Part shown: positions 4,100-63,343 of the stretch, piece after piece | Layout: each line of letters starts with the position of its first letter | Position numbering within the stretch: the first letter of the stretch is position 1 | From: Octopus vulgaris | Lineage: Eukaryota | Direction of reading: 5' to 3' | Length of the DNA: 64,000 bases | NCBI GenBank assembly: GCA_951406725.2 | Contig: OX597833.1 | Span: forward strand, 53,940,001-54,004,000 | Notes under the pieces: generated by a model | Seen by the model: the letters and a program-made list of their open reading frames with translations, nothing else | Databases searched by the model: none | Told to the model about the DNA's origin: nothing | Position numbers and translations under genes: made by a program

Positions 4100-5881
4100 A
4101 TAGGATTGGTTCAATTTTGATTCCGATTTCGATTTCACTTGCCCCAACAGGTCTTTGCAAGCAAAGGGGGTTGGCATGGGTGCCTGTCGTCGGATGAGGT
4201 TTGATATCGACTTCGCTTGCCTCAACAGGTCTATGTGTGTCCAAGGGAGGAAAGGCATGCATAAGTGGGCTGGACTCACTTATCCTGCCTGGTCTTCTCA
4301 CGTACAGCATATTTCCAAAGGTCTCGGTCGGTGGTCATTTCCTCAGTGAGGCCTAAAGTTCGAAGGTCGTGCTTCACCACCTCGTCCCAGGTTTTCCTGG
4401 GTCTACCACTTCCATGGGTTCCCTCAACTGCTAGGGATTGGCACTTTTTCACACACCTATCTTCATCCATTCTCGCCACATGACCATACCAGCGCAATCG
4501 TCTCTCTTGCACACCACAACTGATGCTTATTAGGTCCAACATTTCTCTCAAGGTACTAACGCTCTGTTGAGTATGCACACTGACATTACACATCCATCGG
4601 AGAATACTGGCTTCATTCCTCGCGAGCTTACACATGTCCTCAGCAGTCACGGCCCATGTTTCACTGCCATGTAGCATGGCTGTTCGTACACATGCATCAT
4701 ACAGTCTGCCTTTTACTCTGAGCAAGAGGCCTTTAGTCACCAGCAGAGATAAGAGATCCCTAAACTTTGCCCAGGCTATTCTTACTCTAGCAGTTACACT
4801 TTCAACGCACCCACCCCCACTACTGACTTGGTCACCTAGATAACGGAAGCTATCAACTACTTCTAGTTTTTCCCCCTGGAAAGTGACAGAAATTGTTTTC
4901 TGCAGATTTTCAGAGTTTAATGCTCCCGAGCATCTGCCACATACAAAAACTATCTTCCCATTTAGCCTTCCTTTGACATTGCTGCATCTCTTATGTGTCC
5001 ATAGCTTACACTGGGTACATCTTATAGAGTTTCTACCTACACCTTTTCTACAGATCGAGCAGGGCCATCTTCCTGAAGACATTTGTGGATTGTCTACCTG
5101 CCTACTTATTAGTACTTTGGTTTTAGCTAGGTTGACTCTAAGGCCTCTCGATTCTAAACCCTCCTTCCACACCTGGAACTTCTCCTCCAGTTCTGATAGT
5201 GACTCAGCAATTAGAGCAAGGTCGTCAGCATAGAGGAGCCCCCAGGGGCAACCTGTCTTGAATTCTTCTGTTTACATGTTGCCAACCCGAACCTTACTTA
5301 CGGCATCCCTGTACATGGCTTGCACAGCCCTCACCAGTCATTCATCTATCCCTAGTTTCCTCATTGACCACCAGATAAGGGATCAGGGGGGCCCTGTCAA
5401 AGGCTTTCTCCATGTCAACGAAAGCCAGGTACAGGGGCTTATCTTTAACTAGGTATTTTTCCTGCAGCTGTCTCACCAGAAATATGGCATCAGTGGTGTT
5501 TTTCCCTGGCATGAAACCAAACTGCATCTCGTCCAAGTTGAGTCTCTCCCTAATCAGTTGGGCTATGACCCTCTCTGTAACCTTCATTACCTGATCCAAC
5601 AGCTTGATACCTCTGTAATTATTTGTATCTAGGGCATCACCTTTACCTTTGTAGCCGTTGACTAGTACGCTGCTACACCAGTCATTGGGTATGACTCCTT
5701 CGTGTATCACCTGGTTAACTATACGGGTGACTAGGTTATAGCCGACACTGCCAGATATTTTGAGCATCTCGGCAGTAATTCCTGATGGGCCTGGGGCTTT
5801 TCCTGTCTTCATGCTTCTAATTGCTTTAACTACCAAAGAATTGTCAACTCGGATGGCTGGTCCCTCTGTTGGGTTGACATT

Positions 5882-5885
<4 letters not shown>
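4100..5885 (-). mobile_element. 5'-truncated RTE-clade LINE, disrupted reverse transcriptase with embedded PHD-type finger
   Basis: ORFs 5342-5953 ([29 protein letters not shown]) and 4276-5172 (FRYLG, RRLRWYGHVARM, GRPRKTW); YADD at ~5221-5232; frameshifts and an internal deletion between the ORFs. Confidence 0.95.
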
Positions 5886-5950
<65 letters not shown>

Positions 5951-5962
5951 CATATATACATA

Positions 5963-6003
<41 letters not shown>

Positions 6004-6005
<2 letters not shown>

Positions 6006-6358
6006 TTGAGCTTTGGTGTTGGAGAAGACTTTTGCGGATTCCATGGACAGCGAGGCTCACCAATGGAGAAGTTCTGAAGCAGATAAGGCCAAAAATGTCA
6101 TTAGAAGCTGGGATCACCAAGCGTAGATTGGCACATTTCGGTCACATTATGCGGAGAAAATCGCTGGAGAAGGACATCATGCTCGAAATGGTCAGTGGCA
6201 AGAGAGGAAGAGGCTGACCAAGAACCCGCTGGCTTGACACCATCAGGAGTGATACCGGAATGGACATGGCCAGTCTGAAGAAAGCGGCCCAGGATAGAAC
6301 TGATTGGAGGACACTGATCCAACGAGTGACTGAGAGTCGACTTTGACTAAGCGGATAG
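6004..6358 (+). mobile_element. RTE/BovB-like LINE 3' fragment
   Basis: [17 protein letters not shown]...FGHIMRR...GKRGRG*PRTRWLD; in-frame stop; flanked by (TA)n. Confidence 0.9.
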
Positions 6359-6373
6359 AGAGAGATATATATG

Positions 6374-6457
<84 letters not shown>

Positions 6458-6844
6458 AATGTATATATTTTTCTGTATATTGCAAGCTGGAGCAGATTGC
6501 TGCTATTTCTAGCAGATGGGTGTTCACCCTTGAGGACGAGCACAAATAGCTCAAAACCATATTGTTTGATGGTCCCATCGTCTGCAAGAAGATGCCAGCG
6601 ATCTTCTCCCCTGCTTGCAATATATATCAGATGCAGATTGCATTGACAGCCAGCTGGGGGAGGTTCCTCCTGGGTTAAATCATTGACAAGACTGTGAAAG
6701 GCACTTGGCCAAATGGTTAGGTTGTTTGGATCATGATCATAAAATCATGGGCTCAATTTGTGAACCAGATAATACATTGTATCCTCAAGCAAAGAACAGC
6801 TGGATGCCCTTCCTAATGCCAACCACTCCATGAGTGTAGTATAT

Positions 6845-7233
6845 ACTCTCTTTACTCTTTTAATCTTTTACTTGTTTCAGTCATTTGACTGCGGCCATGC
6901 TGGAGCACCGCCTTTAGCTGAGAAAATCGACCCCGGGACTTATTCTTTGTAAGCCCAGTACTTATTCTCTCAGACTCTTTTGCCGAACCGCTAAGTGACG
7001 GGGACGTAAACACACCAGCATCAGTTGTCAAGCAATGCTAGGGGGACAAACACAGACACACAAACACACACATACATATATACAACAGGCTTCTTTCAGT
7101 TTCCGTCTACCAAATCTACTCACAAGGCATTGGTCGGCCTGGGCCTATAGCAGAAGACACTTGCCCAAGATGCCATGCAGTGGGACTGAACCCGGAACCA
7201 TGTGGTTGGTTAGCAAGCTACTTACCACACAGC
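6845..7233 (-). mobile_element. SINE family A (tRNA head, internal microsatellite, (gagtaaaa)n tail)
   Basis: A box tggctgtgtgg and B box ggttcagtccc on minus; high identity to other copies. Confidence 0.9.
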
Positions 7234-8456
7234 CAAAAATATTAACTGTTATGGTCTTTTATTTATTTGTTACAATGTAGGAAGCAACTTCTTCAAATTG
7301 TTGTTGTACACAGATTATTTTTAGCTCTATTGTACATCTCATAGGAAGTTAAATTCATCTTCTGTTGACTGCTAGAAGATTTATGTAAAAAGGAGGGAGA
7401 GAAAAAGTAAAAGAATTTACCTCTGTGTTGACAGGTAGAGGAAGGGAAATATGTGTTGTCACACAGTGACAAGCCATAAGTGAAAGCAGAAAAATAGACG
7501 TGTGCTCTTTGGGGCTGGCACACAGTGAAAGAGGTACAAAAGAGAATCTGGGTTCTGTATTTATATTTTTTCTTACTAAATTAGATGAAGCTAAACAAAG
7601 GACTTTCCATTTCCTATCTGCTTTAAGGTTACAAGTGAATTGATTTACATAAATTTTCTTAGCACAAAAGCCAAGAACAATAGGAAAGAATACAGTTCTA
7701 TATTTAAGAGATGAAGAATTATGTACCAGTTGCATACTGGGGTCAATGTAACTGACCATCTCCTTCCCCCAAATTTCAGGCTTTGTGCCTATAGTGGTAC
7801 AGATTTTTATTGTCATGAGTATTGCTGTTGTCATCACAGAGATTGTCATCATTAGACAGCACTTCTATGTGCTTCCTTGACCTGCTAGAAATAGCAGCCT
7901 AATCATTTTCAATCCATAGCTATCATCTCACATTAGAAAAGGTCACATTAGATCAGTGAATCTCAGCCCTTTTTTTTTTTTTTTCTTGTAGCAGCCCTTT
8001 TTAAGCAGTTGTTATGCCTGGCACCCACCTAAGTGATGTCTCAGGTATCACGACTATACTAGCTTAACATCTTTTTTCTGCCTTCATCTGCTGGTATCCT
8101 TCATAAATGTTTAATCATTCTCGAAGGCTTCGTTGCTTCATTTGAGAACGTTTTTTTTCACATATTAAACACAGTAACAGTTGCTCATTATTTATAGATG
8201 GAATAAATCCATATTTCAAATATTCACACGAGTATTGACTATACTTTATTTTTTCCCCACACATTCTAAATTTTTAAAAAGGTAACATACACAACAATTG
8301 TGTATATATAATTACATCACTATACAAAATATGATGGAGATTGCAATATACAAAGGAAATAAGCAAAATTGCACACCTGGAAAACACCAATCAAGACAGA
8401 AATATAACATTAAAGATGAATTACTCTTGTTCAAACACGTTTTTATCTATAATATA

Positions 8457-8858
8457 TACTCTTTACTCTCTTTTACTCTTTTACTTGTTTCAGTCATTTG
8501 ACTGCAGCCATGCTGGAGCACCGCCTTTAGTCGAGCAAATCGACCCCAGGACTTATTCTTTGTAAGCCCAGTACTTATCCTATCGGTCTCTTTTGCCGAA
8601 CCGCTAAGTGACGGGGACGTAAACACACCAGCATCGGTTGTCAAGCAATGCTAGGGGGACAAACACAGACACACACACTTATATATATATATATACGACA
8701 GGCTTCTTTCAGTTTCCGTCTACCAAATCCACTCACAAGGCATTGGTCGGCCCGGGGCTATAGTAGAAGACACTTGCCCAAGATGCCATGCAGTGGGACT
8801 GAACCCGGAACCATGTGGTTGGTTAGCAAGCTACTTACCACACAGCCCCTCCTGTGCC
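8457..8858 (-). mobile_element. SINE family A, full length
   Basis: Same structure as 6845-7233. Confidence 0.9.
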
Positions 8859-9285
8859 TATATTTATCTCTCATTTTATTTTTATAGCCATAACTAGTTT
8901 TATCATGTATAATATGATTACTACAATAGGTAAAATTTAATATGTTGATTGCGTTACTTCATTGTCTCCTCATCATCCCTGAAAGTCTAATTCTACCTTT
9001 GACATGCCCAGTGCCCCCACCCCCTGGGGGCAACACCACCTGATTTAGATACTGTGTAGTGTGATGGATGAAGAGGACAACAGAAGGAGAAGGGGAAAGA
9101 AATACAAACAGGCCTTACCTCGGCGATGATCAGAGGTCTCTTACAAATTCGACACCTCCTGTCGCTTCCTCGTCTATGCTCGAACTGCCCGCTTCCTCGA
9201 TCACCACACATGCGTCCCGCTTGACCGCTTCCGCTTCCCCCCGGCACATGCGCCCTCCAGTCTTCCACCGGCCCCTGCAAGCCCT

Positions 9286-9535
9286 CATCATCATCATCAT
9301 TGTTTGACCGTGGTCGAGACAATGGAATTTACCATGCTACGCCAGACTTCACGGTCCATCATAGCATTACAGAGGTCCTGTTGCTGGATGCCTGTATCCC
9401 TGGAGATTACATCAGGGTTGGAGAGTGTGCGCCCTCTGGTATTGCGAGCAGATGGCTTCCAGAGGAGAAGAGTAGAAATTGCCTCGTTTTCAGCTCTACA
9501 ACAATGTCCAGCAAACTGGACTCTCCTACCTACTT
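9286..9535 (-). mobile_element. RTE-like LINE 3' end with (TGA)n tail
   Basis: RRVQFAGHCCRAENE...LLLWKP...AMMDREVWR. Confidence 0.8.
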
Positions 9536-9629
9536 CTGCCCACCTCATTTGTCGTCCTCTCCACCGACACCACAAGCTCCCATAACACCGACTGCCAACA
9601 TCACATACTGAAATCCTACATATCCACTG

Positions 9630-9860
9630 TGAAGGCATATGGTTTAGTGATCAGGGTATTCACCTCACGATTGTAAGGGCATGAGTTCAATCCCCAGAAA
9701 CGTGCTGTGTCCTTGAGCAAGACATTTTATTTCCTGTTGCTCCAGACCACTCAGCTGGCGAAAATGAGTAGTACCCTATAGTTCAAAGGGGCCAGCCTTG
9801 TCACATTCTGTGTCATGCTGAATCTCCCTGAGAACTACATTAAGGGTACATGTATCTATG
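9630..9860 (+). mobile_element. SINE family C-related, degenerate
   Basis: tRNA-like head plus ccttgagcaagac and cactcagctggc...aaaatgagta. Confidence 0.7.
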
Positions 9861-10199
9861 AGGTTGTTTGACCAGCTAGAATTAGCCACCAGATTTATTT
9901 CAGATCACTTCCTACTATCTGAAAAGAGAAGGACATGCTGGGTAAAATGGTTCTTTGTTTGCAGTACTTAGGAAAGAGACTATGATGGTCACAGCTGCAA
10001 TGGTTTCAATTTAAGGATGACCTAGAACTTAACAATTCACCACAAGGCCCAGTTCTTGTGGTCTGGTGGTTTGTGTGTCTCAATACACAATGATGAGAGC
10101 TATGCAAGCAGAGTATAAGATCCTGGTATGGGCCTCCCATGTTGGACAGATAAAAAGATATAGGCCAGACTAATATGGAATGCCTCTTCCCAGAGGTAA

Positions 10200-10443
10200 A
10201 AATGGGTTTGTATAGGGCCAACACCCCTCTCTAGGTAAAAAGCAAAGTTACAGAAGCATAGAGGACAATTCAAAACTAACAACACCTGGAAAAGGACAGC
10301 CTTCCCCCCAGGAAACATGATGCATTGAAGCAAATTCCAAACGGAAAAACAGGGATCCAGCTGGAGAGAAGATAGTCCAGAATTAAGAATGCTGGAGAAA
10401 TGTTGTCAATGGCCTATGCTCCACAAGGAGTGAAGGGCTTAGG
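10200..10443 (+). mobile_element. Degenerate RTE LINE 3' end
   Basis: ...ECWRNVVNGLCSTRSEGL-type C-terminus with frameshifts. Confidence 0.55.
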
Positions 10444-10455
10444 TAAACACTAAAC

Positions 10456-11104
10456 CAGGCCTGGCCAACTCAAATTACATTGCGGGCCACTTTAATCACA
10501 GAAAGTTTTTTGAGGGCCGCTTGTATACTTTATGCACTAATAGTTAAATAGTCGTAAAGTATACTAGCCATCTCAATATGGCTAACCACTAGGGGTGGGT
10601 GTTACTGTAGCTTTTTAGCCCCAGGAGATCATCGTCTCCAGCTGGCTTTAGACACAATTCCTGTGCTCTTATGATATTTGCAAAGGGATTACAGAATCAA
10701 GATTTTCTATACTTTTCGTTTGTTTAAAATTATAAGATTGTAGGTTATTGTTTTATTGCCAGTTATAAGTTTTAAAAGATAGCAAAAAAGATGTTCAGTT
10801 AATACTTGCAAAGTACATTTGTGTGCTATGAGAATAGAGCACTGCTGACCCAATTGAAAGCATTTTGCTTTCTCATGCTGTTATTACAATAATGAATGAA
10901 TGATCATTGGTTCAACATGAAATTTTATACTTGCAAAAACAGTTGCATCTTTCTTTTTCACTTTTCATTACAATCTTTAATTTTCAATAAAATTTTTAAA
11001 ATGTCTGTTTAAATAAACCTATTTCAAGAAAGTATCAAGCAGGCCCCAAGATAAAAGTTTGCAGGCTGCATGCATCCTGGCAGGTCTCAGGTTGGCTAAC
11101 CCTG
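10456..11104. mobile_element. hAT-type MITE
   Basis: Imperfect TIRs CAGGCCTGGCCAAC / GTTGGCTAACCCTG; 8-bp TSD CACTAAAC (10448-10455; 11368-11375 beyond a later SINE insertion). Confidence 0.8.
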
Positions 11105-11111
11105 CACTAAA

Positions 11112-11360
11112 AAAATAAATAAATGCGCCCTTTTAAAGCCTAGCCAGGCTCATGGGCCTGATTTCCCGGTTTCTATGGCGTATGTGTTCCCTAGCTGGAC
11201 AGGACGCCAGTCCATCACAGCGTTACTCATTTTTGCCAGCTGAGTGGACTGGAGCAATGTGAAATGAAGTGTTTTGCTCAAGAACACAATACATCACCCA
11301 GTCCAGGAATCGAAACCACAATCTTACGATCACCCTAACCACTAAGCCACACGCCTTCAC
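11112..11360 (-). mobile_element. SINE family C with 14-bp TSD
   Basis: aaccctgcactaaa at 11098-11111 and 11361-11374. Confidence 0.85.
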
Positions 11361-11539
11361 AACCCTGCACTAAACAATAGCAAATTCTTTTAATCTTTTA
11401 ATCCAATCAACATCCATGCAGCAACACTTCTTTCAAGGATTTTAGTTGGTTATATTGATCCCAACACATTTTTCAGTTTGGTACTTATTGTATTGATCTC
11501 TATTTATTGAACAGCTAAGTTATTCCTATTAGATTTTTT

Positions 11540-13401: not shown

Positions 13402-14320
13402 TGGCAAGCTGGTGGAATCGTTAGCACGCCGGGCGAAATGCTTAGCGGTATTTCGTCTGTCTTTACGTTCTGAGTTCAAATTCCACCGAGGTCGACTTTG
13501 CCTTTCATCCTTTCGGGATCGATTAAATAAGTACCAGTTATGCACTGGGGTTGATGTAATCGACTTAATCCGTTTGCCTGTCCTTGTTTGTCTCTTCTGT
13601 GTGTAGCCCCTTGTGGGTAGTAAAGAAATAGGCATTTCATCTGCCGTTACGTTCTGAGTTCAAATTCCGCCAAGGTCGACTTTGCCTTTCATCCTTTCGG
13701 GGGGTCGATAAATTAAGTACCAGTTACGCACTGGTGTCGATATAATCAACTTAATCCGTTTGTCTGTTCTTGTTTGTCTCCTCTGTCTTTAGCCCCTTGT
13801 GGGTAGTAAAGAAACAGGCATTTCATCTGCCGTTACGTTCTGAGTTCAAATTCCGCCGAGGTCGACTTTGCCTTTCATCCTTTCGGGATCGATTAAATAA
13901 GTACCAGTTATGCACTGGAGTTGATATAATCGACTTAATCCGTTTGTCTGTCCTTGTTTGTCCTCTCTGTGTTTAGCCCCTTGTGGGTAGTAAAGAAATA
14001 GGCATTTCATCTGCCGTTTCGTTCTGAGTTCAAATTCCGCCGAGGTCGACTTTGCCTTTCATCCTTTCGGGATCGATGAAATAAGTACCAGTTATGCACT
14101 GGGGTCGATATAATCGACTTAATCCATTTGTCTGTCCTTGTTTGTCCTCTCTGTGTTTAGCCCCTTGTGGGTAGTAAAGAAATAGGCATTTCATCTGTCT
14201 TTATGTTCTGAGTTCAAATTCTACCGAGGTTAACTTTGCCTTTACATACTGGAGCTGATCTAATCGACTGGCCCTGCCTCCCACCAAAGTTCAGGCCTTG
14301 TACCTATATCAGTAAAAAGA
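13402..14320 (+). repeat. Tandem array of SINE-B body, ~184-bp period
   Basis: gttctgagttcaaatt at 13467, 13651, 13837, 14021, 14205. Confidence 0.9.
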
Positions 14321-14329
14321 ATCATTATT

Positions 14330-15740
14330 GGTAAGCTGGCAGAATTGTTAGCATGCCAGGCAAAATGCTTTGTGGTATTTCGTCCCATCTTTACATTCTG
14401 AGTTCAAATGCTGTCGAGGCCAAATTTGCCTTTCATCCATTCGGGGTTGTTAAAATCAGTACCAGTTGAACACTGGGGTTGATGTAATCAACTTAACCCC
14501 TCCCTGAATTACCCTTGTGCCGAAATTTGAAATCATTATTATTGTTATCACGAAGGTGGTGAGCTGGCAGAATCATTAGCATGTTGGACAAAATAGTGAC
14601 CTTTCTTCCAACTCTTTATATCTTTACATTCTGGGTTCAAATTCCACCGAGGTCAACCTTGCTTTTCCTCCTTTCAGGCTTGATATAAACAGTACCAATT
14701 GACAGACAGACACTTCACGAATCATATACACTCATAGGGATGGTTACCATGGTGCATATATTCTCCCCTGGATGGGATGCCAGTCTGTTGAAGGGTTACT
14801 CATTTTTGGACAGCTGAGCAGACTAGAGTAATGTGAAATGAAGTGTTTTGCTCAAGAACACAATGCGTTGCCCAGTCCAGGAATCAAAACCACAATGTTA
14901 CAATCATGAGCCCCACACCCTAACCACTAAACCATGCACCTTCACATTGAGTTCTGGGTCAATGTAATTGATTAGCTCCTCTGCACAGAATTTCAGGTCT
15001 TGTACTTATAGTAGGAAGAATTATTATTGCCATGAAGGTTATGAGCTAACAGAATCATTAGAGCATCCGGTAAATGCTCTAGAGTAAGGCGGCGGGTTGA
15101 CAGAAATGTTAGCATGCCGGGCGAAATGCGTAGCGATATTTCATCTGCTGCTACGTTCTGAGTTCAAATTCCGCTGAGGTCAACTTAGCTTTTCATCCTT
15201 TCGGGGTCGATTAAATAAGTACCGGTTACTGGGGTCGATGTAATCGACTTAATCCTTTTGTCTGTCCTTGTTTGTCCCCTCTATGTTTAGCCCCTTGTGG
15301 GCAGTAAAGAAATAAGAATCGTTAGAGCATCTGACATAATGCTTCGTGGCATTTCATCTCAGTTCAAGTTCCATCTGAGCTAAAATTCCATTGTCTTTCA
15401 TTCTTTCAGGGTCGATAAAATCAGTAGCAACTGAGAACTGGGGTCAGTAGTATAATTGCTTAAACCTCTCCCTACAAAGATTTAAGGCCTTCTGCCTATA
15501 ACAGAAAGAATTATTATTGATTTCAATTTTCAAATTTTGGCATAAGGTCAGCAATTTTAGGGGTGGGGTGGGGGTAAGAAGATTACATCAACCCCAGTTT
15601 TCAACTGGTACTTATTCTATCAGCCCCCAAAACGATGAAAAGCAAAGTCAATCTCAGTGGGATTTGAACTCAGAATGTAAAGACAGATAAAAAAACCGCT
15701 AAGCATTTTGCCTGGTGTGCTAACGATTCTGCCAGCTCAT
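14330..15740. mobile_element. Further SINE B copies with an interspersed SINE C (~14760-14945, minus)
   Basis: Repeated B-family motifs. Confidence 0.75.
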
Positions 15741-29167: not shown

Positions 29168-29264
29168 ACTTTTCCATTTTTCCCAAGTGTCAAACTAATA
29201 CCCTGCTTGTTGTTCCCTCACCTGTCTTCGTCTTTTGTTTTCTGTAAATTCAAGCTATATATAT

Positions 29265-29604
29265 AAAAGCACCATCTGTTCATGTCCGTTGCCAGCCTCG
29301 CCTGGCCCCTGTGCCGGTGGCACGTAAAAGCACCATCCGCTTGTGTCCATTGCCAGCCTCGCCTGGCCCCCATGCCGGTGGCACTTAAAAGCACCATCCA
29401 TTCGTGGCCGTTTGCCAGCTCCGTCTGGCACCTATGCGGGTGGCACATAAAAAGCACCCACTACACTCACGGAGTGGTTGGCGTTAGGAAGGGCATCCAG
29501 CCGTAGAAACACTGCCAGATCAGACTGGGCCTGATGCGGCCTTCCGGCTTCACAGACCCCAGTTGAACCGTCCAACCCATGCTAGCATGGAAAGTGGACG
29601 CTAA

Positions 29605-32989: not shown

Positions 32990-33640
32990 GTTAAGAAGTT
33001 TGCTTCTCAACCACATGGTTTCAGGTTCAATCCCACTCAGCGGAATCTTAGGCAAGTGTCTTTTACTATAGCCTCAGGCCAAGCAAAGCCTTGTGAGTTG
33101 ATTAAGTAGACGGAAACTGAAAGAAGCTTGTTGTGTATATAGCAGAGGTAGCTATAGGTATAGGAATGGCTGTGTGGTAAGTAGCTTGTTTACCAACCAC
33201 ATGGTTCCAGGTTCAATCCCACTCAGCGGAATCTTAGGCAAGTGTCTTTTACTATAGCCTCAGGCCAAATAAAGCCTTGTGAGTGGATTTGGTAGACAGA
33301 AACTGAAAGAAGCCTGTTGTGTATATAGCAGGAGTAGCTATAGGTATAGGAATGGCTGTGTGGTAAGTAGCTTGCTTACGAACCACATGGTTCCGGGTTC
33401 ATTCCCACTGCATGACACCTTGGGCAAGTGTCTTCTACTATAGCCTCGGGCCGACCAAAGCCTTGTGAGTGGATTTGGTAGACAGAAACTGAAAGAAGCC
33501 TGTTGTGTATATAGAAGAGGTAGCTATAGGCATAGGAATGGCTGCGTGGTAAGTAGCTTGCTTACCAACCACATGGTTCCAGGTTCATTCCCACTGCGTG
33601 GCACCTTGGGCAAGTGTCTTCTACTATAGCCTTGGGCCTG
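32990..33640 (+). repeat. Tandem array of SINE-A heads, 186-bp period
   Basis: Equivalent positions (actatagcct) near 33071, 33257, 33443, 33629. Confidence 0.9.
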
Positions 33641-44741: not shown

Positions 44742-44749
44742 TATATTGT

Positions 44750-45000
44750 GGAGGCACATGGCTTAGTGGTTAGGGTGTCAGCATCATGATCGTAAGATTG
44801 TGGTTTCAATTCCTTGACAGGGTGACGCATCGTGTTCTTGAGCAAAACACTTCATTTCACGTTGCTCCAGTCCACTCAGCTGGTAAAAATGAGTAACACT
44901 GCGATGGACTGGCATCCCGTCCAGCTGGGGAACACATAAGCCATAGAAACCAGGAAACTGGGCCCATGAGCCTAGCTAGGCTTTAAAAGGGCACATTTAT
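44750..45000 (+). mobile_element. SINE family C, full length
   Basis: Reverse complement of 11112-11360. Confidence 0.85.
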
Positions 45001-46814: not shown

Positions 46815-47198
46815 TTGGCCCCCGTGCCGGTGACACGTAAAAGCACCATCCATTTCGTGGCCGTTTGCCAGCTCTGTCTGGCCCCCGTGTTGGTGGCACA
46901 TAAAAGCACCATCCGTTCGTGTCCGTTGCCAGCCTCGCTTGGCCCCGTGCCTGTGACACGTAAGAGCACCATCCGTTCGTGGCCGTCTGCCAGCTCTGTC
47001 TGGCACCTGTGCGGGTGGCACGTAAAAAGCACCCACTACACTCACGGAGTGGTTGGCGTTAGGAAGGGCGTCCAGCCGTAGAAACACTGCCAGATCTGAC
47101 TGGGCCTGATGAAGCCTTCCAGCTTCACAGACCCCAGTTGAACCGTCCAACCCATGCTAGCATGGAGAACGGACGCTAAATGATGATGATGATGATGA

Positions 47199-55009: not shown

Positions 55010-55340
55010 ATCCGTGTCGGTGGCACGTAAAAAGCACCATCCGAATCGTGGCCGAAGCCAGTGCCGCGTCGACTGGCTTCCGTGCTGGTGGCACGTAAAA
55101 TGCACCAATCCGACTGTGGCCGATGCCAGCCTCACCTGGCACCAGTGCAGGTGGCACGTAAAAAGCACCCACTACACTCACGGAGTGGTTGGCGTCAGGA
55201 AGGGCATCCAGCTGTAGAAACATTGCCAGATAAGACCGGAGCCTGGTGCAGCCTTCTGGCTTCCCGGATCCCCGGTCAAACCATCCAACCCATGCTAGCA
55301 TGGAGAACGGACGTTAAATGATGATGATGATGATGATGAA
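55010..55340 (+). mobile_element. SINE-like family D
   Basis: Family sequence. Confidence 0.85.
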
Positions 55341-56724: not shown

Positions 56725-56945
56725 CTCAAAAGGGTCAGTTTCCTGGTTTCATGGTGTATAAGTTCCCCACCTGGATAGGACACTAGTCCATTGCAGGATT
56801 ACTCATTTTTGCCAGCTGAGTGGACTGGAGCAACATGAAATGAAGTCTTTTGCTCAAGAACACAACCTGTCACCCAGTCCAGGAATTGAAACCATAATCT
56901 TATGACCATGTCCAACACCCTAACCACTAAGCCATGCACTTCCAC
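56725..56945 (-). mobile_element. SINE family C
   Basis: Similar to 11112-11360. Confidence 0.8.
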
Positions 56946-58102
56946 AGGAGCATGGGGCCACCTCCATTTCATGTCAGTGGACTCTTTTCATGGGCTACCT
57001 CCTTGGTTTTAGACCAAGAGAGAATGATTGGTTTCCTTTCATCCTCCATGCATCTTTTCCAGGTTTTTGTAGGTCATCCAACTTCCCTCTTTCCTTCAGG
57101 TTGCCAGTCTAACACTTATCTTGCAATGCTGCTTTGAGGTCTCCCAAGAGTGTAACCAATCCTGCCTCATTTCTTTTTCAGAATTTCTTGCTTGATGTGA
57201 CTTTGGTTCATTCTGTCCCATTAGGCTTCCATTTGAAATTTCATCTGGCCACCAGATCTTGAGCAAGTGGTACAGACATTGAGCAAAAGTCTATGGGTTA
57301 CATTTTATGGCTAGAATAAGTACTAGACTTAAAAATGAGCACTGGTGTTCATTCATTTGGGTAAAAGGTGGCGCCCCAGCATGGCCATTAACCAATGACT
57401 GAAACAAGAAGAAAAACAAAAGGTAAATAGTCTTGGAGAAATGATGCAACAAGTGGGATTTGAAGAAATTGGTGCAGGGTATATTCAGGATTTATTGCAT
57501 GCTGAATATAAAACCTTGCCCCTTAAGTTCTTATACAGTTAGCAGAACAGGAGTAGTCTAGTTCAGATTGCAAGGGAGAGACTTCTTCATTACCAGTTTT
57601 TAACAGCAGAGACTTTTATCTGAATGCTTTAGTGCAAACTTCATAAAAAAAAGATTCAAATGTTCAACAAAGCATCAAAGTTAAAAAGATCTGAAATATT
57701 AGCACTGAATTGTTATAAGGAAGAATTAGAAGTTCGCAAAAAGAAGATAAAGAAATCAGTCCTTTAAACAAAAAAAAAAGAAAATATGAGTCTAACAGAA
57801 CCAATAACACCATTTTTATTGTTTATCTATCTACCTTTCTTTTTGTTGTTTTTGATTTTAACGTGTTGAATAAAATAAAGAAAGTGTAAAATTTTTTTTC
57901 AGAATGAATTACATATAAATTTGTTCAAGCAATTTTTTTTCTCTATAAAGTATATATAGTTTTTGATTGAATCACACAAAATTTTGTTCATCAGATTCCT
58001 CCTAAGCAAAGAATGTGAGGTTTTTTTTATTGATTTACACAATGTTATTCAAAGAATTTACATATATATATGTATATACATACACCCCCCCCACACACAC
58101 AC

Positions 58103-60194: not shown

Positions 60195-60771
60195 CATACA
60201 TATATACATATACAAGTCATTGTTGACTTATGACCACAATTTTCATAAGTCAATTTGGTCGTAAGTCAGCCTATAGGCCAACTTAGCTTTGTTTATAATT
60301 TTACATTCTCAAGGTACATTCTCAGGTAAAAGTCACACACAGCATTCTGTATTATACTATTATACTGGCGTTAGTCAAACATTTTGGAGTCTTATAAACA
60401 AATATGAGCTTGCCTCGATGTCTATGCAACAGGATAGTCGTCCAATACAGTGGTGATCAATAGTCAAACCTAGGGAAAGCGTTTGTTAGCTGACATCATC
60501 CGTAGATGGGTTAATTTCTAAGAAATTAAACCCATTAGATTTCAACTGGACTAATTTATTATTGCTGCCGGTAAGATTTCTTGACCTGGATACCCTTCCT
60601 AATGCCAACCATGCCAAGAGTGTAGTGAGTGCTTTTATGTGCCACTGGCATGGGAGCCAGTTAGGTGGCACTGGCATCGGCTATGCTTGAATGGTGCTTG
60701 TTATGTGCCACCGGTATGGGTGCCAATCAGGCGGCACTTACAATATATATGTACACACACACACACACACA

Positions 60772-61843: not shown

Positions 61844-61889
<46 letters not shown>

Positions 61890-61890
<1 letters not shown>

Positions 61891-62047
61891 TTTATTTAAA
61901 AGCAGCAGAAATTCAACAAAACCTGTTACACGGAGTTTCACGTTCCCGTTCATCAGACAGTTTTGCTAGGGTTAGGGTGAGGGTCGAACGGGAACGTGAA
62001 ACTCCGTGTAACAGGTTTTGTTGAATTTCTGCTGCTTTTAAATAAAG
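61890..62047. repeat. Perfect 62-bp inverted repeat with telomere-like loop
   Basis: 61890-61951 is the exact reverse complement of 61986-62047; loop contains tagggttagggtgaggg. Confidence 0.97.
61918..61964 (-). ncRNA. Minimal type I hammerhead ribozyme
   Basis: aaaactgt CTGATGA acg ggaa cgt GAAAC tccgt GTA acaggtttt. Confidence 0.72.
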
Positions 62048-62116
62048 CATATTACTCTACCCCTGGTATTTGAGTACTCTTTTTTCCACCTTGTTTCACA
62101 TTTATGTGTTTACTCC

Positions 62117-62153
<37 letters not shown>

Positions 62154-63343
62154 CAGGCTTCTTTCAGTTTCCATCTACCGAATCCACTCACAAAGCTTTG
62201 CTCAGCCTGAAGCTAAAGCAGAAGACACTTGTCCAGGGTGCCATGCACTGGGACTGAACCTGGAACCATGTGCTTGAGAAGCAAGCTTCTTCCCACTCAT
62301 CCATATCTGTACCTATATCATCATCATCCTCATCATCATCATCATCATCATCTCAATGAATCAATCGTAGTAATACCATTCATATATTTTTATTATGTTT
62401 TTTATGCTATGCTTAAAGTACCATTCACTGCTGAAAAACTTTTGGGTAATATTGGAATCGCAGTTTACCTAACAACAGTGATCTCCTTTCATCAATACCT
62501 TTTGTACAATGATAATTGATTACTTAAGTGTCTGCTTTGTGTGATTCTGTCTAGCCAATTACTGGCATGCTTCACTTTGATATGCCTTGGTCCTTTATGG
62601 AACCCTTGTAATTGAAACTCTGTGTGTGTGTGTGTCTGTGTATGTGTGTGTGTGTGTGTTAAATTACATAATGTGTGTGTGTGTGTGTTTGTGTTTGTCC
62701 CCCATCAATGAATGACAATAATTGTTGATTTGGTTACGTTCCTGTAACTTAGCTATTCAGAGAGAATAAGCGTCAGGATTTAAAAACGTCTTTGATTTGT
62801 TTGTATTCTGATTAGAAATTTCACTTGTTAATTATCTGTTGATTAGTTAACAAGTCATTGTTCACCTGTTCACCCGAGTGCCTGATGAGTTGGGACTTAT
62901 GAAAAATTATGCAATTTAACTAATTGTATTATGCTTCAAGACAGTGCTCTAGCACTGAAGCAAGTAGACTAAATGACTGATGGAAGTAAAACACAAAACA
63001 ATCCATAATCCAATGAAGAACCGAGACAAACTATAAAATGCATAATTTACAAAGAATGCTTTATTTAATATTACAAAAATAGGGATTGAGAAAATATTCT
63101 CAAATAAACTATTCTGAAAAAAATCTATTTTTCTATTAGTTTCTTCAATGATCTCACTGAACTTCTCGATTGGAAAGTTACCAAGTGCAAACTGATCAAA
63201 ATGAAAAATCCATAATCCATAGATTGGTTTTAAGTTTACCAAAGATCATTCAATCAACCAAAATATTTGGACAAAATGTGTAGACTATATATATTTAATT
63301 ATGAAGATTTCATTCAAGATTATTTATACTGTGAAACCATAAA

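What the first reader, a model, noticed from the sequence alone, without database searches (positions are those of the whole stretch)
61890..62118. Perfect 62-bp inverted repeat carrying a hammerhead, joined through telomere-like repeats
Seen: zero-mismatch arms; a complete minimal hammerhead on minus (61918-61964); the plus copy is truncated inside CTGATGA and preceded by TAGGG TTAGGG TGAGGG; the whole unit sits in (TA)n. Known: TTAGGG is the common metazoan telomere repeat, and some Penelope-like clades attach to telomeric repeats and show inverted pLTRs. Inference: a young insertion in which telomeric sequence was captured at the inversion junction, suggesting telomere priming or telomerase-like addition at an interstitial site.
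Basis: partly seen in the sequence, partly recalled or inferred. Interest (0 to 1): 0.8.

Follow-up and report, generated by a model that had tools for sequence, protein, structure and literature searches.

The report
Penelope remnant with telomere-like junction patch
Two short fragments of a very abundant repeat family, likely a Penelope-like jumping gene, sit head to head in a TA microsatellite of a probable octopus, and the 15 telomere-like bases between them are not the family's normal sequence but likely a one-off repair patch, possibly written by telomerase.

Summary
In detail: 62-bp zero-mismatch arms (61890-61951 / 61986-62047), a 34-nt spacer, a 71-nt tail on one side, (TA)n on both sides and a hammerhead core on minus. 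Contigs of four public runs show a very abundant family (4,261-10,619 contigs laid in each of the three large runs). Its 3' ends abut (TA)n, and other head-to-head junctions fall at varied positions. This is the published layout of endonuclease-bearing Penelope-like elements (PLEs); no linked RT was found. The telomere-like run is not the family's normal sequence: relatives continue A-rich after ...GCTAG, and none of 12 shown junction fillers (of 45) is telomeric. Family-wide telomere priming is therefore not supported. The filler (61970-61984) matches the telomere repeat at 14/15, in register with the element's own TAG, as telomerase addition to a truncated cDNA end would give. A tRNA-derived SINE in the window shares its first 10 nt and is a real rival. 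Both arms carry one rare allele that breaks the family's helix-III palindrome, so they likely come from one template and this hammerhead is probably dead. Known kind of element, one curious junction, n = 1.

The parts
61848..61889 (.). (TA)21, left half of the target microsatellite
61890..61969 (-). Left copy: 80-nt 5'-truncated 3' end of the element, ending at the short (tail-less) end; carries the whole hammerhead motif
   Evidence: family contigs cover to 61969 and then continue A-rich; an X5 loose end (7 contigs) shows relatives with (TA)n directly against this same end
61890..61951 (.). Left arm of the 62-bp perfect inverted repeat
61914..61968 (-). Type I minimal hammerhead motif; helix III palindrome broken by a rare allele at 61930; probably inactive
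61967..61969 (+). TAG of the element, in register with the telomere-like filler
   Evidence: (relatives read TGCTAG then A)
61970..61985 (+). Locus-specific junction filler, 15-16 nt; 14/15 match to the telomere repeat; first 10 nt also identical to the head of a tRNA-derived SINE
61986..62118 (+). Right copy: 133-nt 5'-truncated 3' end, cut inside the hammerhead core, with the long end
   Evidence: longest family pieces start at 61985-61995
61986..62047 (.). Right arm of the inverted repeat
62048..62118 (+). 71-nt tail present on one copy only; the most abundant part of the family
62119..62151 (.). (TA)16.5, right half of the target microsatellite, abutting an unrelated abundant SINE

Best explanation
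This is a perfect inverted repeat made of two short 3'-end fragments of a very abundant hammerhead-bearing repeat family, likely inserted head to head into a (TA)n run in one Penelope-type retrotransposition event, with a locus-specific 15-nt filler that was likely derived from telomeric repeat, probably added by telomerase. Inferred steps: (1) the element's endonuclease cut both strands in (TA)n; (2) each target 3' end primed cDNA on the same RNA, one from the outer start site (62118) and one from the inner one (61890), which explains the one-sided tail; (3) both stopped early, after 133 and 80 nt, leaving two 3' ends facing each other; (4) the left cDNA ended in ...TAG-3' and was extended by 2.5 G-rich repeats in register; (5) end joining closed the gap. 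The copy is likely inert: no ORF, a damaged helix III, and the motif is predicted to be buried in a 62-bp hairpin in any read-through RNA. Odds: about 0.87 for the PLE origin, about 0.6 for a telomeric origin of the filler (telomerase 0.4, capture from telomeric DNA or RNA 0.2).
For: Shown. The family is very abundant: 10,619 / 4,261 / 4,359 / 587 contigs laid in runs X1, X2, X5, X12, with parts held under 4 organism labels. Summed depth falls from the tail toward the hammerhead, a 5'-truncation gradient. Loose ends show (TA)n against both the long end (62115, all 4 runs) and the short end (62052, 61909). The 15 joints shown (of 70) include many left-to-right joins at different positions. Relatives continue after GCTAG with A-rich letters, and 0 of 12 fillers shown (of 45) and 0 of 24 loose ends shown (of 528) are telomeric. 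At 61930 the window's allele is at most 0.7% of family depth in all 4 runs, yet both arms carry it, which points to one template. The filler matches at 14/15, p about 5e-7 per junction for any phase or strand, in register with 3 element nucleotides. Known. Inverted 5'-truncated copy plus one-sided tail, and (TA)n as a preferred PLE target (PMC8557442; PMC3846280). Both-strand cleavage and extension with two RT start sites that define the tail (PMC11167929). Minimal palindromic hammerheads in pLTRs (PMC4209133). In-register nucleotides as the mark of telomerase insertions at breaks (PMC2246262; PMC7215372). Telomeric repeats added to truncated 5' ends of EN- PLEs. Host context: the named hits with the highest identity to a LINE RT in the window are Octopus, 75-77%, and TTAGGG is the one telomere motif determined for a cephalopod (PMC13218726).
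Against: No RT or GIY-YIG partner was found, so PLE membership rests on non-coding features. Helix II is 3 bp closed by A-U, not the long G-C-closed helix described for most PLE minimal hammerheads. The tail is 71 nt against the usual 30-40. The filler has one mismatch to the telomere repeat exactly where a SINE of this window matches; a rough likelihood ratio favours telomere over SINE only 3-8 fold. With 1e4-1e5 junctions per genome, 0.025-0.25 such fillers are expected by chance, before the scan's own selection. Strand polarity is not a test, because a head-to-head junction has a free 3' end on each strand. The mirror position of 61930 (62007) is not listed as variable, nor are the mirrors of 62023-62024 (61913-61914); I attribute this to how contigs fitting both arms are counted but could not verify it. 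No listed contig piece spans the whole unit. One event only.
Confidence: 0.52

Rival explanations
1. Same PLE insertion, but the filler was copied from the head of an abundant tRNA-derived SINE (template switch or templated repair), and the last 5 nt are a local re-copy of the preceding five.
For: Four SINE copies in the window read GGTTAGGGTG, identical to 61970-61979 including the one base that departs from the telomere repeat; one copy matches 11 nt exactly, the longest shared word in 64 kb. The SINE has TAG one base upstream of that word.
Against: Beyond nt 10-11 the copies diverge: 12-13 of 15 for three copies (the fourth was read with an offset slip there, 11 of 15 by eye). The last 5 nt continue the telomere repeat exactly (chance about 1e-3).
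Confidence: 0.17
2. Same PLE insertion, but the filler is untemplated or slippage synthesis from end joining that resembles the telomere repeat by chance and was picked out by the scan.
For: Other junctions carry short unrelated fillers (table 5c). The expected number per genome is 0.025-0.25 for 1e4-1e5 junctions, and many genomes are scanned.
Against: p about 5e-7 per junction under a base-composition null; only one such element lies in this window; the fillers shown are mostly AT-rich, not G-rich; the element and 2-kb flanks share at most 4 and 6 nt with the filler.
Confidence: 0.14
3. The unit is not from a PLE but is a MITE or a retrozyme-type non-autonomous repeat that happens to carry a hammerhead.
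For: No protein partner found. A short element with inverted repeats in (TA)n resembles a MITE. Type I hammerheads occur in animal retrozymes (PMC7229834).
Against: The repeat is not terminal (71 nt lie outside it). Junction positions vary between copies and depth shows 5' truncation, which are marks of retrotransposition. Animal retrozymes are 150-450-bp tandem direct repeats; no direct tandem copy is present here.
Confidence: 0.08
4. One reading: the family attaches to or primes on telomeric repeats, like Athena/Coprina, and the telomere-like run is a regular part of it.
For: In element sense the run is C-rich and lies directly 5' of the hammerhead, the arrangement described for EN- PLEs. 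The read tool silently drops contigs that match human DNA, which could remove contigs with long TTAGGG runs.
Against: 3' (priming) ends abut (TA)n. Relatives continue A-rich at this place in 10-42 contigs per run. Contigs join across the spacer with non-telomeric letters. The site is interstitial, with no other telomeric run in 64 kb.
Confidence: 0.04
5. The inversion or the filler is an assembly or library artefact.
For: No listed contig piece spans the unit; no raw long reads could be examined.
Against: Both ends coincide with natural family ends and similar inverted joins occur in independent runs. The filler bin has depth 37.1 in X1 and 9.8 in X2, about one locus, in the two runs that hold most words. 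That is weak, since either run could be the assembly's source and the depth could come from other contigs.
Confidence: 0.04

Closest known systems
Endonuclease-bearing Penelope-like elements (Penelope/Poseidon, Neptune, Nematis, Hydra): inverted pLTR plus tail (PMC8557442 passages; PMC3846280 passages; PMC11167929 main text)
   Same: Head-to-head 5'-truncated copies, extension on one end only, AT-rich/(TA)n target, hammerhead a short way upstream of the two 3' ends, high copy number.
   Different: No ORF left, so the clade cannot be assigned; tail 71 nt rather than 30-40; the junction holds a telomere-like filler rather than the palindrome or microhomology described for rotifer copies.
Minimal type I hammerheads of metazoan PLEs (PMC4209133, abstract to discussion read)
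   Same: Full catalytic core, small palindromic helix III in the family (suited to dimer folding), occurrence as nearby copies on opposite strands.
   Different: Helix II is 3 bp with A-U at 10.1-11.1 and helix I is long (12 bp); this copy's palindrome is broken (self-duplex -0.3 against -7.4 to -7.9 kcal/mol).
Short interstitial telomeric sequences inserted at breaks by telomerase (PMC2246262, PMC7215372; passages)
   Same: G-rich repeats starting in register with 3 nucleotides at the break; interstitial.
   Different: Only 2.5 units (those studies used at least 4); the inferred break end is a retroelement cDNA, not chromosomal DNA; invertebrate host.
EN-deficient PLEs Athena/Coprina (passages in PMC8557442, PMC3846280)
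   Same: Telomeric repeats next to the truncated 5' end, same polarity; hammerhead nearby.
   Different: Those prime on telomere overhangs at chromosome ends and carry the reverse-complement repeats as part of the element; this family's 3' ends sit in interstitial (TA)n and relatives lack the repeats.

Membership tests
EN+ Penelope-like element | PLE-clade RT with GIY-YIG endonuclease | tested here: inconclusive
   No GIY-YIG among the 150 longest of 201 non-repetitive frames; the only RVT_1 hits lie at 4279-6097, a LINE-like element. The 44-codon frame of the right copy found no homologue and 2 spurious repeat-protein hits. The parent element could not be fetched.
EN+ Penelope-like element | Inverted 5'-truncated copy joined head to head | tested here: met
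   (here and at varied positions in relatives)
EN+ Penelope-like element | Optional tail at one end only (two 3' ends) | tested here: met
   71-nt tail on the right copy only; relatives end at both sites against (TA)n; longer than the typical 30-40 nt
EN+ Penelope-like element | Hammerhead motif in the pLTR | tested here: met
   (motif); no Rfam model hit
EN+ Penelope-like element | Target-site duplication | not testable with these tools
   Both flanks are (TA)n
PLE minimal hammerhead | Conserved core with palindromic 15.2-16.2 region | tested here: inconclusive
   Met by the family majority allele (at least 99.3% of depth at 61930); not met by this copy
PLE minimal hammerhead | G10.1-C11.1 pair and long helix II | tested here: not met
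   3-bp helix II closed by A-U
PLE minimal hammerhead | Self-cleavage | not testable with these tools
   Needs an assay
EN- telomeric PLE (Athena/Coprina) | Reverse-complement telomeric repeats as part of the element; 3' end attached to telomeric repeats | tested here: not met
   Relatives continue A-rich; 3' ends abut (TA)n; the tool's human-match filter is a caveat
Telomerase-made interstitial telomeric insertion | 1-8 nt at the break in register with the repeats | tested here: met
   3 nt
Telomerase-made interstitial telomeric insertion | Clean array of at least 4 units with no other donor | tested here: not met
   2.5 units, one mismatch, a SINE shares 10-11 nt
MITE | Fixed terminal inverted repeats | tested here: not met
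   Repeat is not terminal; junctions vary
Animal non-LTR retrozyme | Tandem direct 150-450-bp monomers each with a type I hammerhead | tested here: not met
   No direct tandem copy at this locus; other loci not examined for tandems

The most novel reading that the evidence does not exclude
Telomerase competes for the free cDNA 3' ends of an ordinary, endonuclease-bearing Penelope-like element during integration inside chromosomes, heals them with a few repeats, and the intermediate is then closed by end joining. This junction would be a fossil of that, and the family's thousands of inverted junctions would let its frequency and register rule be measured in one genome.
Probability: 0.25. Interest if true: 0.6.

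Novelty: new member of a known kind. Interest (0 to 1): 0.3.

Why it matters
The element is a known kind. I found no paper describing hammerheads in octopus PLEs (listing; passages), but Penelope-like families are annotated in Octopus vulgaris and I did not see that repeat library. If the filler is telomerase-made, it shows that the free cDNA end of a retrotransposition intermediate can be treated as a broken chromosome end, linking PLE integration to interstitial telomeric repeats. I did not find this reported for interstitial EN+ PLE junctions (searches; listings and passages only). The shared rare allele in both arms also supports both halves of an inverted PLE insertion coming from one template, which bears on the open question of how these inversions form. 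With one 15-nt event the case stays anecdotal.

Tried and rejected
Own-genome search: no genome is held. Exact-pattern scans for other copies with flanks: viral contigs 0 and 0; metagenomes 3 hits, all isolated 20-nt chance matches in 54-56% GC DNA; GTDB 0, then 2 chance hits. So no relative with flanks could be read. Low depth over 61970-61977 (37.1, 9.8, 0, 0 against 79,029, 85,901, 34,075, 2,522 in the bin before) fits a locus-specific filler, but a dip alone is no proof because human-like contigs are filtered; I rely on loose ends and joins instead. Peak depth over the median depth of the 8 longest pieces is 5e4-1e5 in X1, X2 and X5: an order of magnitude only, not a copy number. No RNA holder is on record; X12 is only guessed to be RNA, so nothing is claimed on expression. 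Protein link: searches gave nothing real (both hits are tandem-repeat translations with 36-41% local identity). The variable sites listed show no third-position bias in that frame (read by eye), so it is not claimed to be coding. Rfam hits at E<=10 were generic hairpin models. Local templating of the filler: at most 4 nt shared with the element and 6 nt with the 2-kb flanks. Earlier-findings look-ups by sequence, genome and relatives were empty. The supplement of PMC13282606 was listed but not read; a repeat library there could already name this family.

Full report
Observation. The 229 bases at 61890-62118 contain an exact 62-bp inverted repeat (61890-61951 / 61986-62047) around a 34-nt spacer, followed by 71 nt outside the repeat, between (TA)21 and (TA)16.5. 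There is no second copy in the window. On the minus strand the hammerhead core is complete, with helix I of 12 bp and one bulge, helix II of 3 bp and helix III of 2 bp; predicted cleavage lies between 61927 and 61926. Rfam gives no hit at gathering level and no hammerhead family among 41 matches at E<=10. The telomere-like run at 61967-61984 matches the repeat at 17 of 18 and is unique in the window.

Host. The window is microsatellite- and SINE-rich animal DNA. The named homologues with the highest identity to a LINE RT fragment in it are Octopus proteins at 75-77%, against about 50% or less for other named animals (best 120 of 207 hits listed, most unnamed). So an octopod is likely but not proven. 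TTAGGG is the only telomere motif determined experimentally for a cephalopod (PMC13218726, passage).

The family. No genome was held and collection scans gave only chance hits. Twenty of 24 listed runs, from 8 studies and 4 organism labels, hold parts of the stretch. Laying contigs of four of them at 80% likeness placed 10,619, 4,261, 4,359 and 587 contigs. Summed depth peaks in the tail and declines toward the hammerhead, as 5' truncation gives. Loose ends show (TA)n against the long end in all four runs (14-78 contigs) and against the short end in X2 and X5. The 15 joints shown of 70 are mostly left-to-right joins at many different positions, each in 1-2 contigs: other head-to-head insertions with their own truncation points. 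This is the layout described for EN+ PLEs: an inverted 5'-truncated copy and a tail at one end, with (TA)n as a preferred target of some clades (PMC8557442, passages; PMC3846280, passages). The tail corresponds to two RT start sites, and the purified anole enzyme cuts and extends both target strands (PMC11167929, main text). The coding partner was not found, so clade and strict membership remain open.

The junction. Relatives do not continue with telomeric repeats after the helix I strand. Loose ends behind 61964-61965 are A-rich (10-42 contigs per run), one X5 consensus and one X2 filler read TGCTAG followed by A, and none of 12 fillers shown (of 45) or 24 loose ends shown (of 528) is telomeric. 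The left copy therefore ends at 61969, and the right copy starts at 61986; position 61985 is C where the left copy has T. The filler is 61970-61984/5. Depth across it is near the single-locus level in X1 and X2 and zero in X5 and X12, which fits; I do not lean on it, because the tool drops human-like contigs, which may include long TTAGGG runs. Telomere priming of the family is not supported: priming ends are in (TA)n.

One template. At 61930 the family has the other base in 99.3-99.9% of depth in all four runs, yet both arms carry the window's rare base. The simplest reading is that both halves were copied from one RNA in one event; later conversion between arms is possible. The mirror position is not listed in the variant table, and two variants listed on the right arm have no listed mirror on the left; I put this down to handling of contigs that fit both arms, unverified. 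The same change breaks the family's helix III palindrome: the self-duplex is -0.3 kcal/mol against -7.4 to -7.9 for the majority forms. Such palindromes are what allow PLE minimal hammerheads to work as dimers (PMC4209133, abstract to discussion). A read-through RNA would fold the arms into one long hairpin (-118 kcal/mol). This copy is very probably not an active ribozyme.

Mechanism. From strand geometry (inference): the left copy's antisense strand runs 5'->3' out of the left (TA)n and the right copy's antisense strand runs out of the right (TA)n, so both are what target-primed cDNAs would be, with 3' ends meeting in the middle. The left one ends in TAG, and the filler continues the telomere repeat in register for 15 nt with one substitution. 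In-register bases at the break are the published mark of telomerase-made interstitial repeats: 3 or more nt at 33-40% of informative mouse, rat, human and chimpanzee loci against under 2% expected (PMC2246262, passages; similar in horse, PMC7215372, passages). Telomeric repeats are added to truncated 5' ends of EN- PLEs at chromosome ends. Polarity itself is not a test, since either strand offers a 3' end. A second telomeric route is template switching onto telomeric RNA or capture of telomeric DNA; TGAGGG is a common telomere variant repeat in humans (recalled, no call).

Rivals for the filler. A tRNA-derived SINE with four close copies in this window carries the filler's first 10 nt, including the substituted base, but not the last 5. 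A rough comparison favours telomere by 3-8 fold. Chance is about 5e-7 per junction, or 0.025-0.25 per genome for 1e4-1e5 junctions with five boundary choices, so selection by the scan cannot be excluded. I put telomerase at 0.4, telomeric template capture at 0.2, SINE at 0.2, chance at 0.15 and the remainder at 0.05, given a PLE origin.

Novelty. Inverted PLE remnants with minimal hammerheads are known, and earlier unchecked notes of this scan describe similar ones in other animals. Penelope-like families, 31 with recent insertions, are annotated in Octopus vulgaris (PMC13282606, passages; supplement not read). I found no report of a telomeric filler at an interstitial EN+ PLE inversion junction (searches; open-access library only). 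It is one 15-nt event with a credible non-telomeric donor. Interest 0.3.

Noticed in passing
61969-61992 (+): Four GGG tracts (61969, 61975, 61981, 61990) form a G-quadruplex-type motif across the junction; three lie in the hairpin loop.
   Followed up: no
about 11129-11362 (-), 14741-14946 (-), 44745-44990 (+), 56736-56946 (-): tRNA-derived SINE family whose head contains one TTAGGG; it accounts for 4 of the 15 single telomere hexamers in the window and is a rival donor for the filler.
   Followed up: partly
62150-62320: Another very abundant SINE-like repeat (26 further hits in the window); the element sits in the (TA)n next to it.
   Followed up: partly
13450-14243 and 32992-33632: Tandem arrays of 184-186-bp SINE-like units (4.3 and 3.4 copies, about 90% alike).
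   Followed up: no
4279-6097 (-): Broken LINE-like RT with a PHD-finger hit, with a (TA)n run at 5886-6002 at its upstream edge.
   Followed up: partly
62048-62054 and 62110-62123: Both family 3' ends are a G followed by ATAT-like letters in the template or target, so a (TA)n primer could pair at the inner RT start site; 6-9% of depth has T at 62048 in three runs.
   Followed up: no
29264-29458, 46815-47033, 55019-55169, 60635-60738: A family of short 60-63-bp tandem units recurs several times in the window.
   Followed up: no
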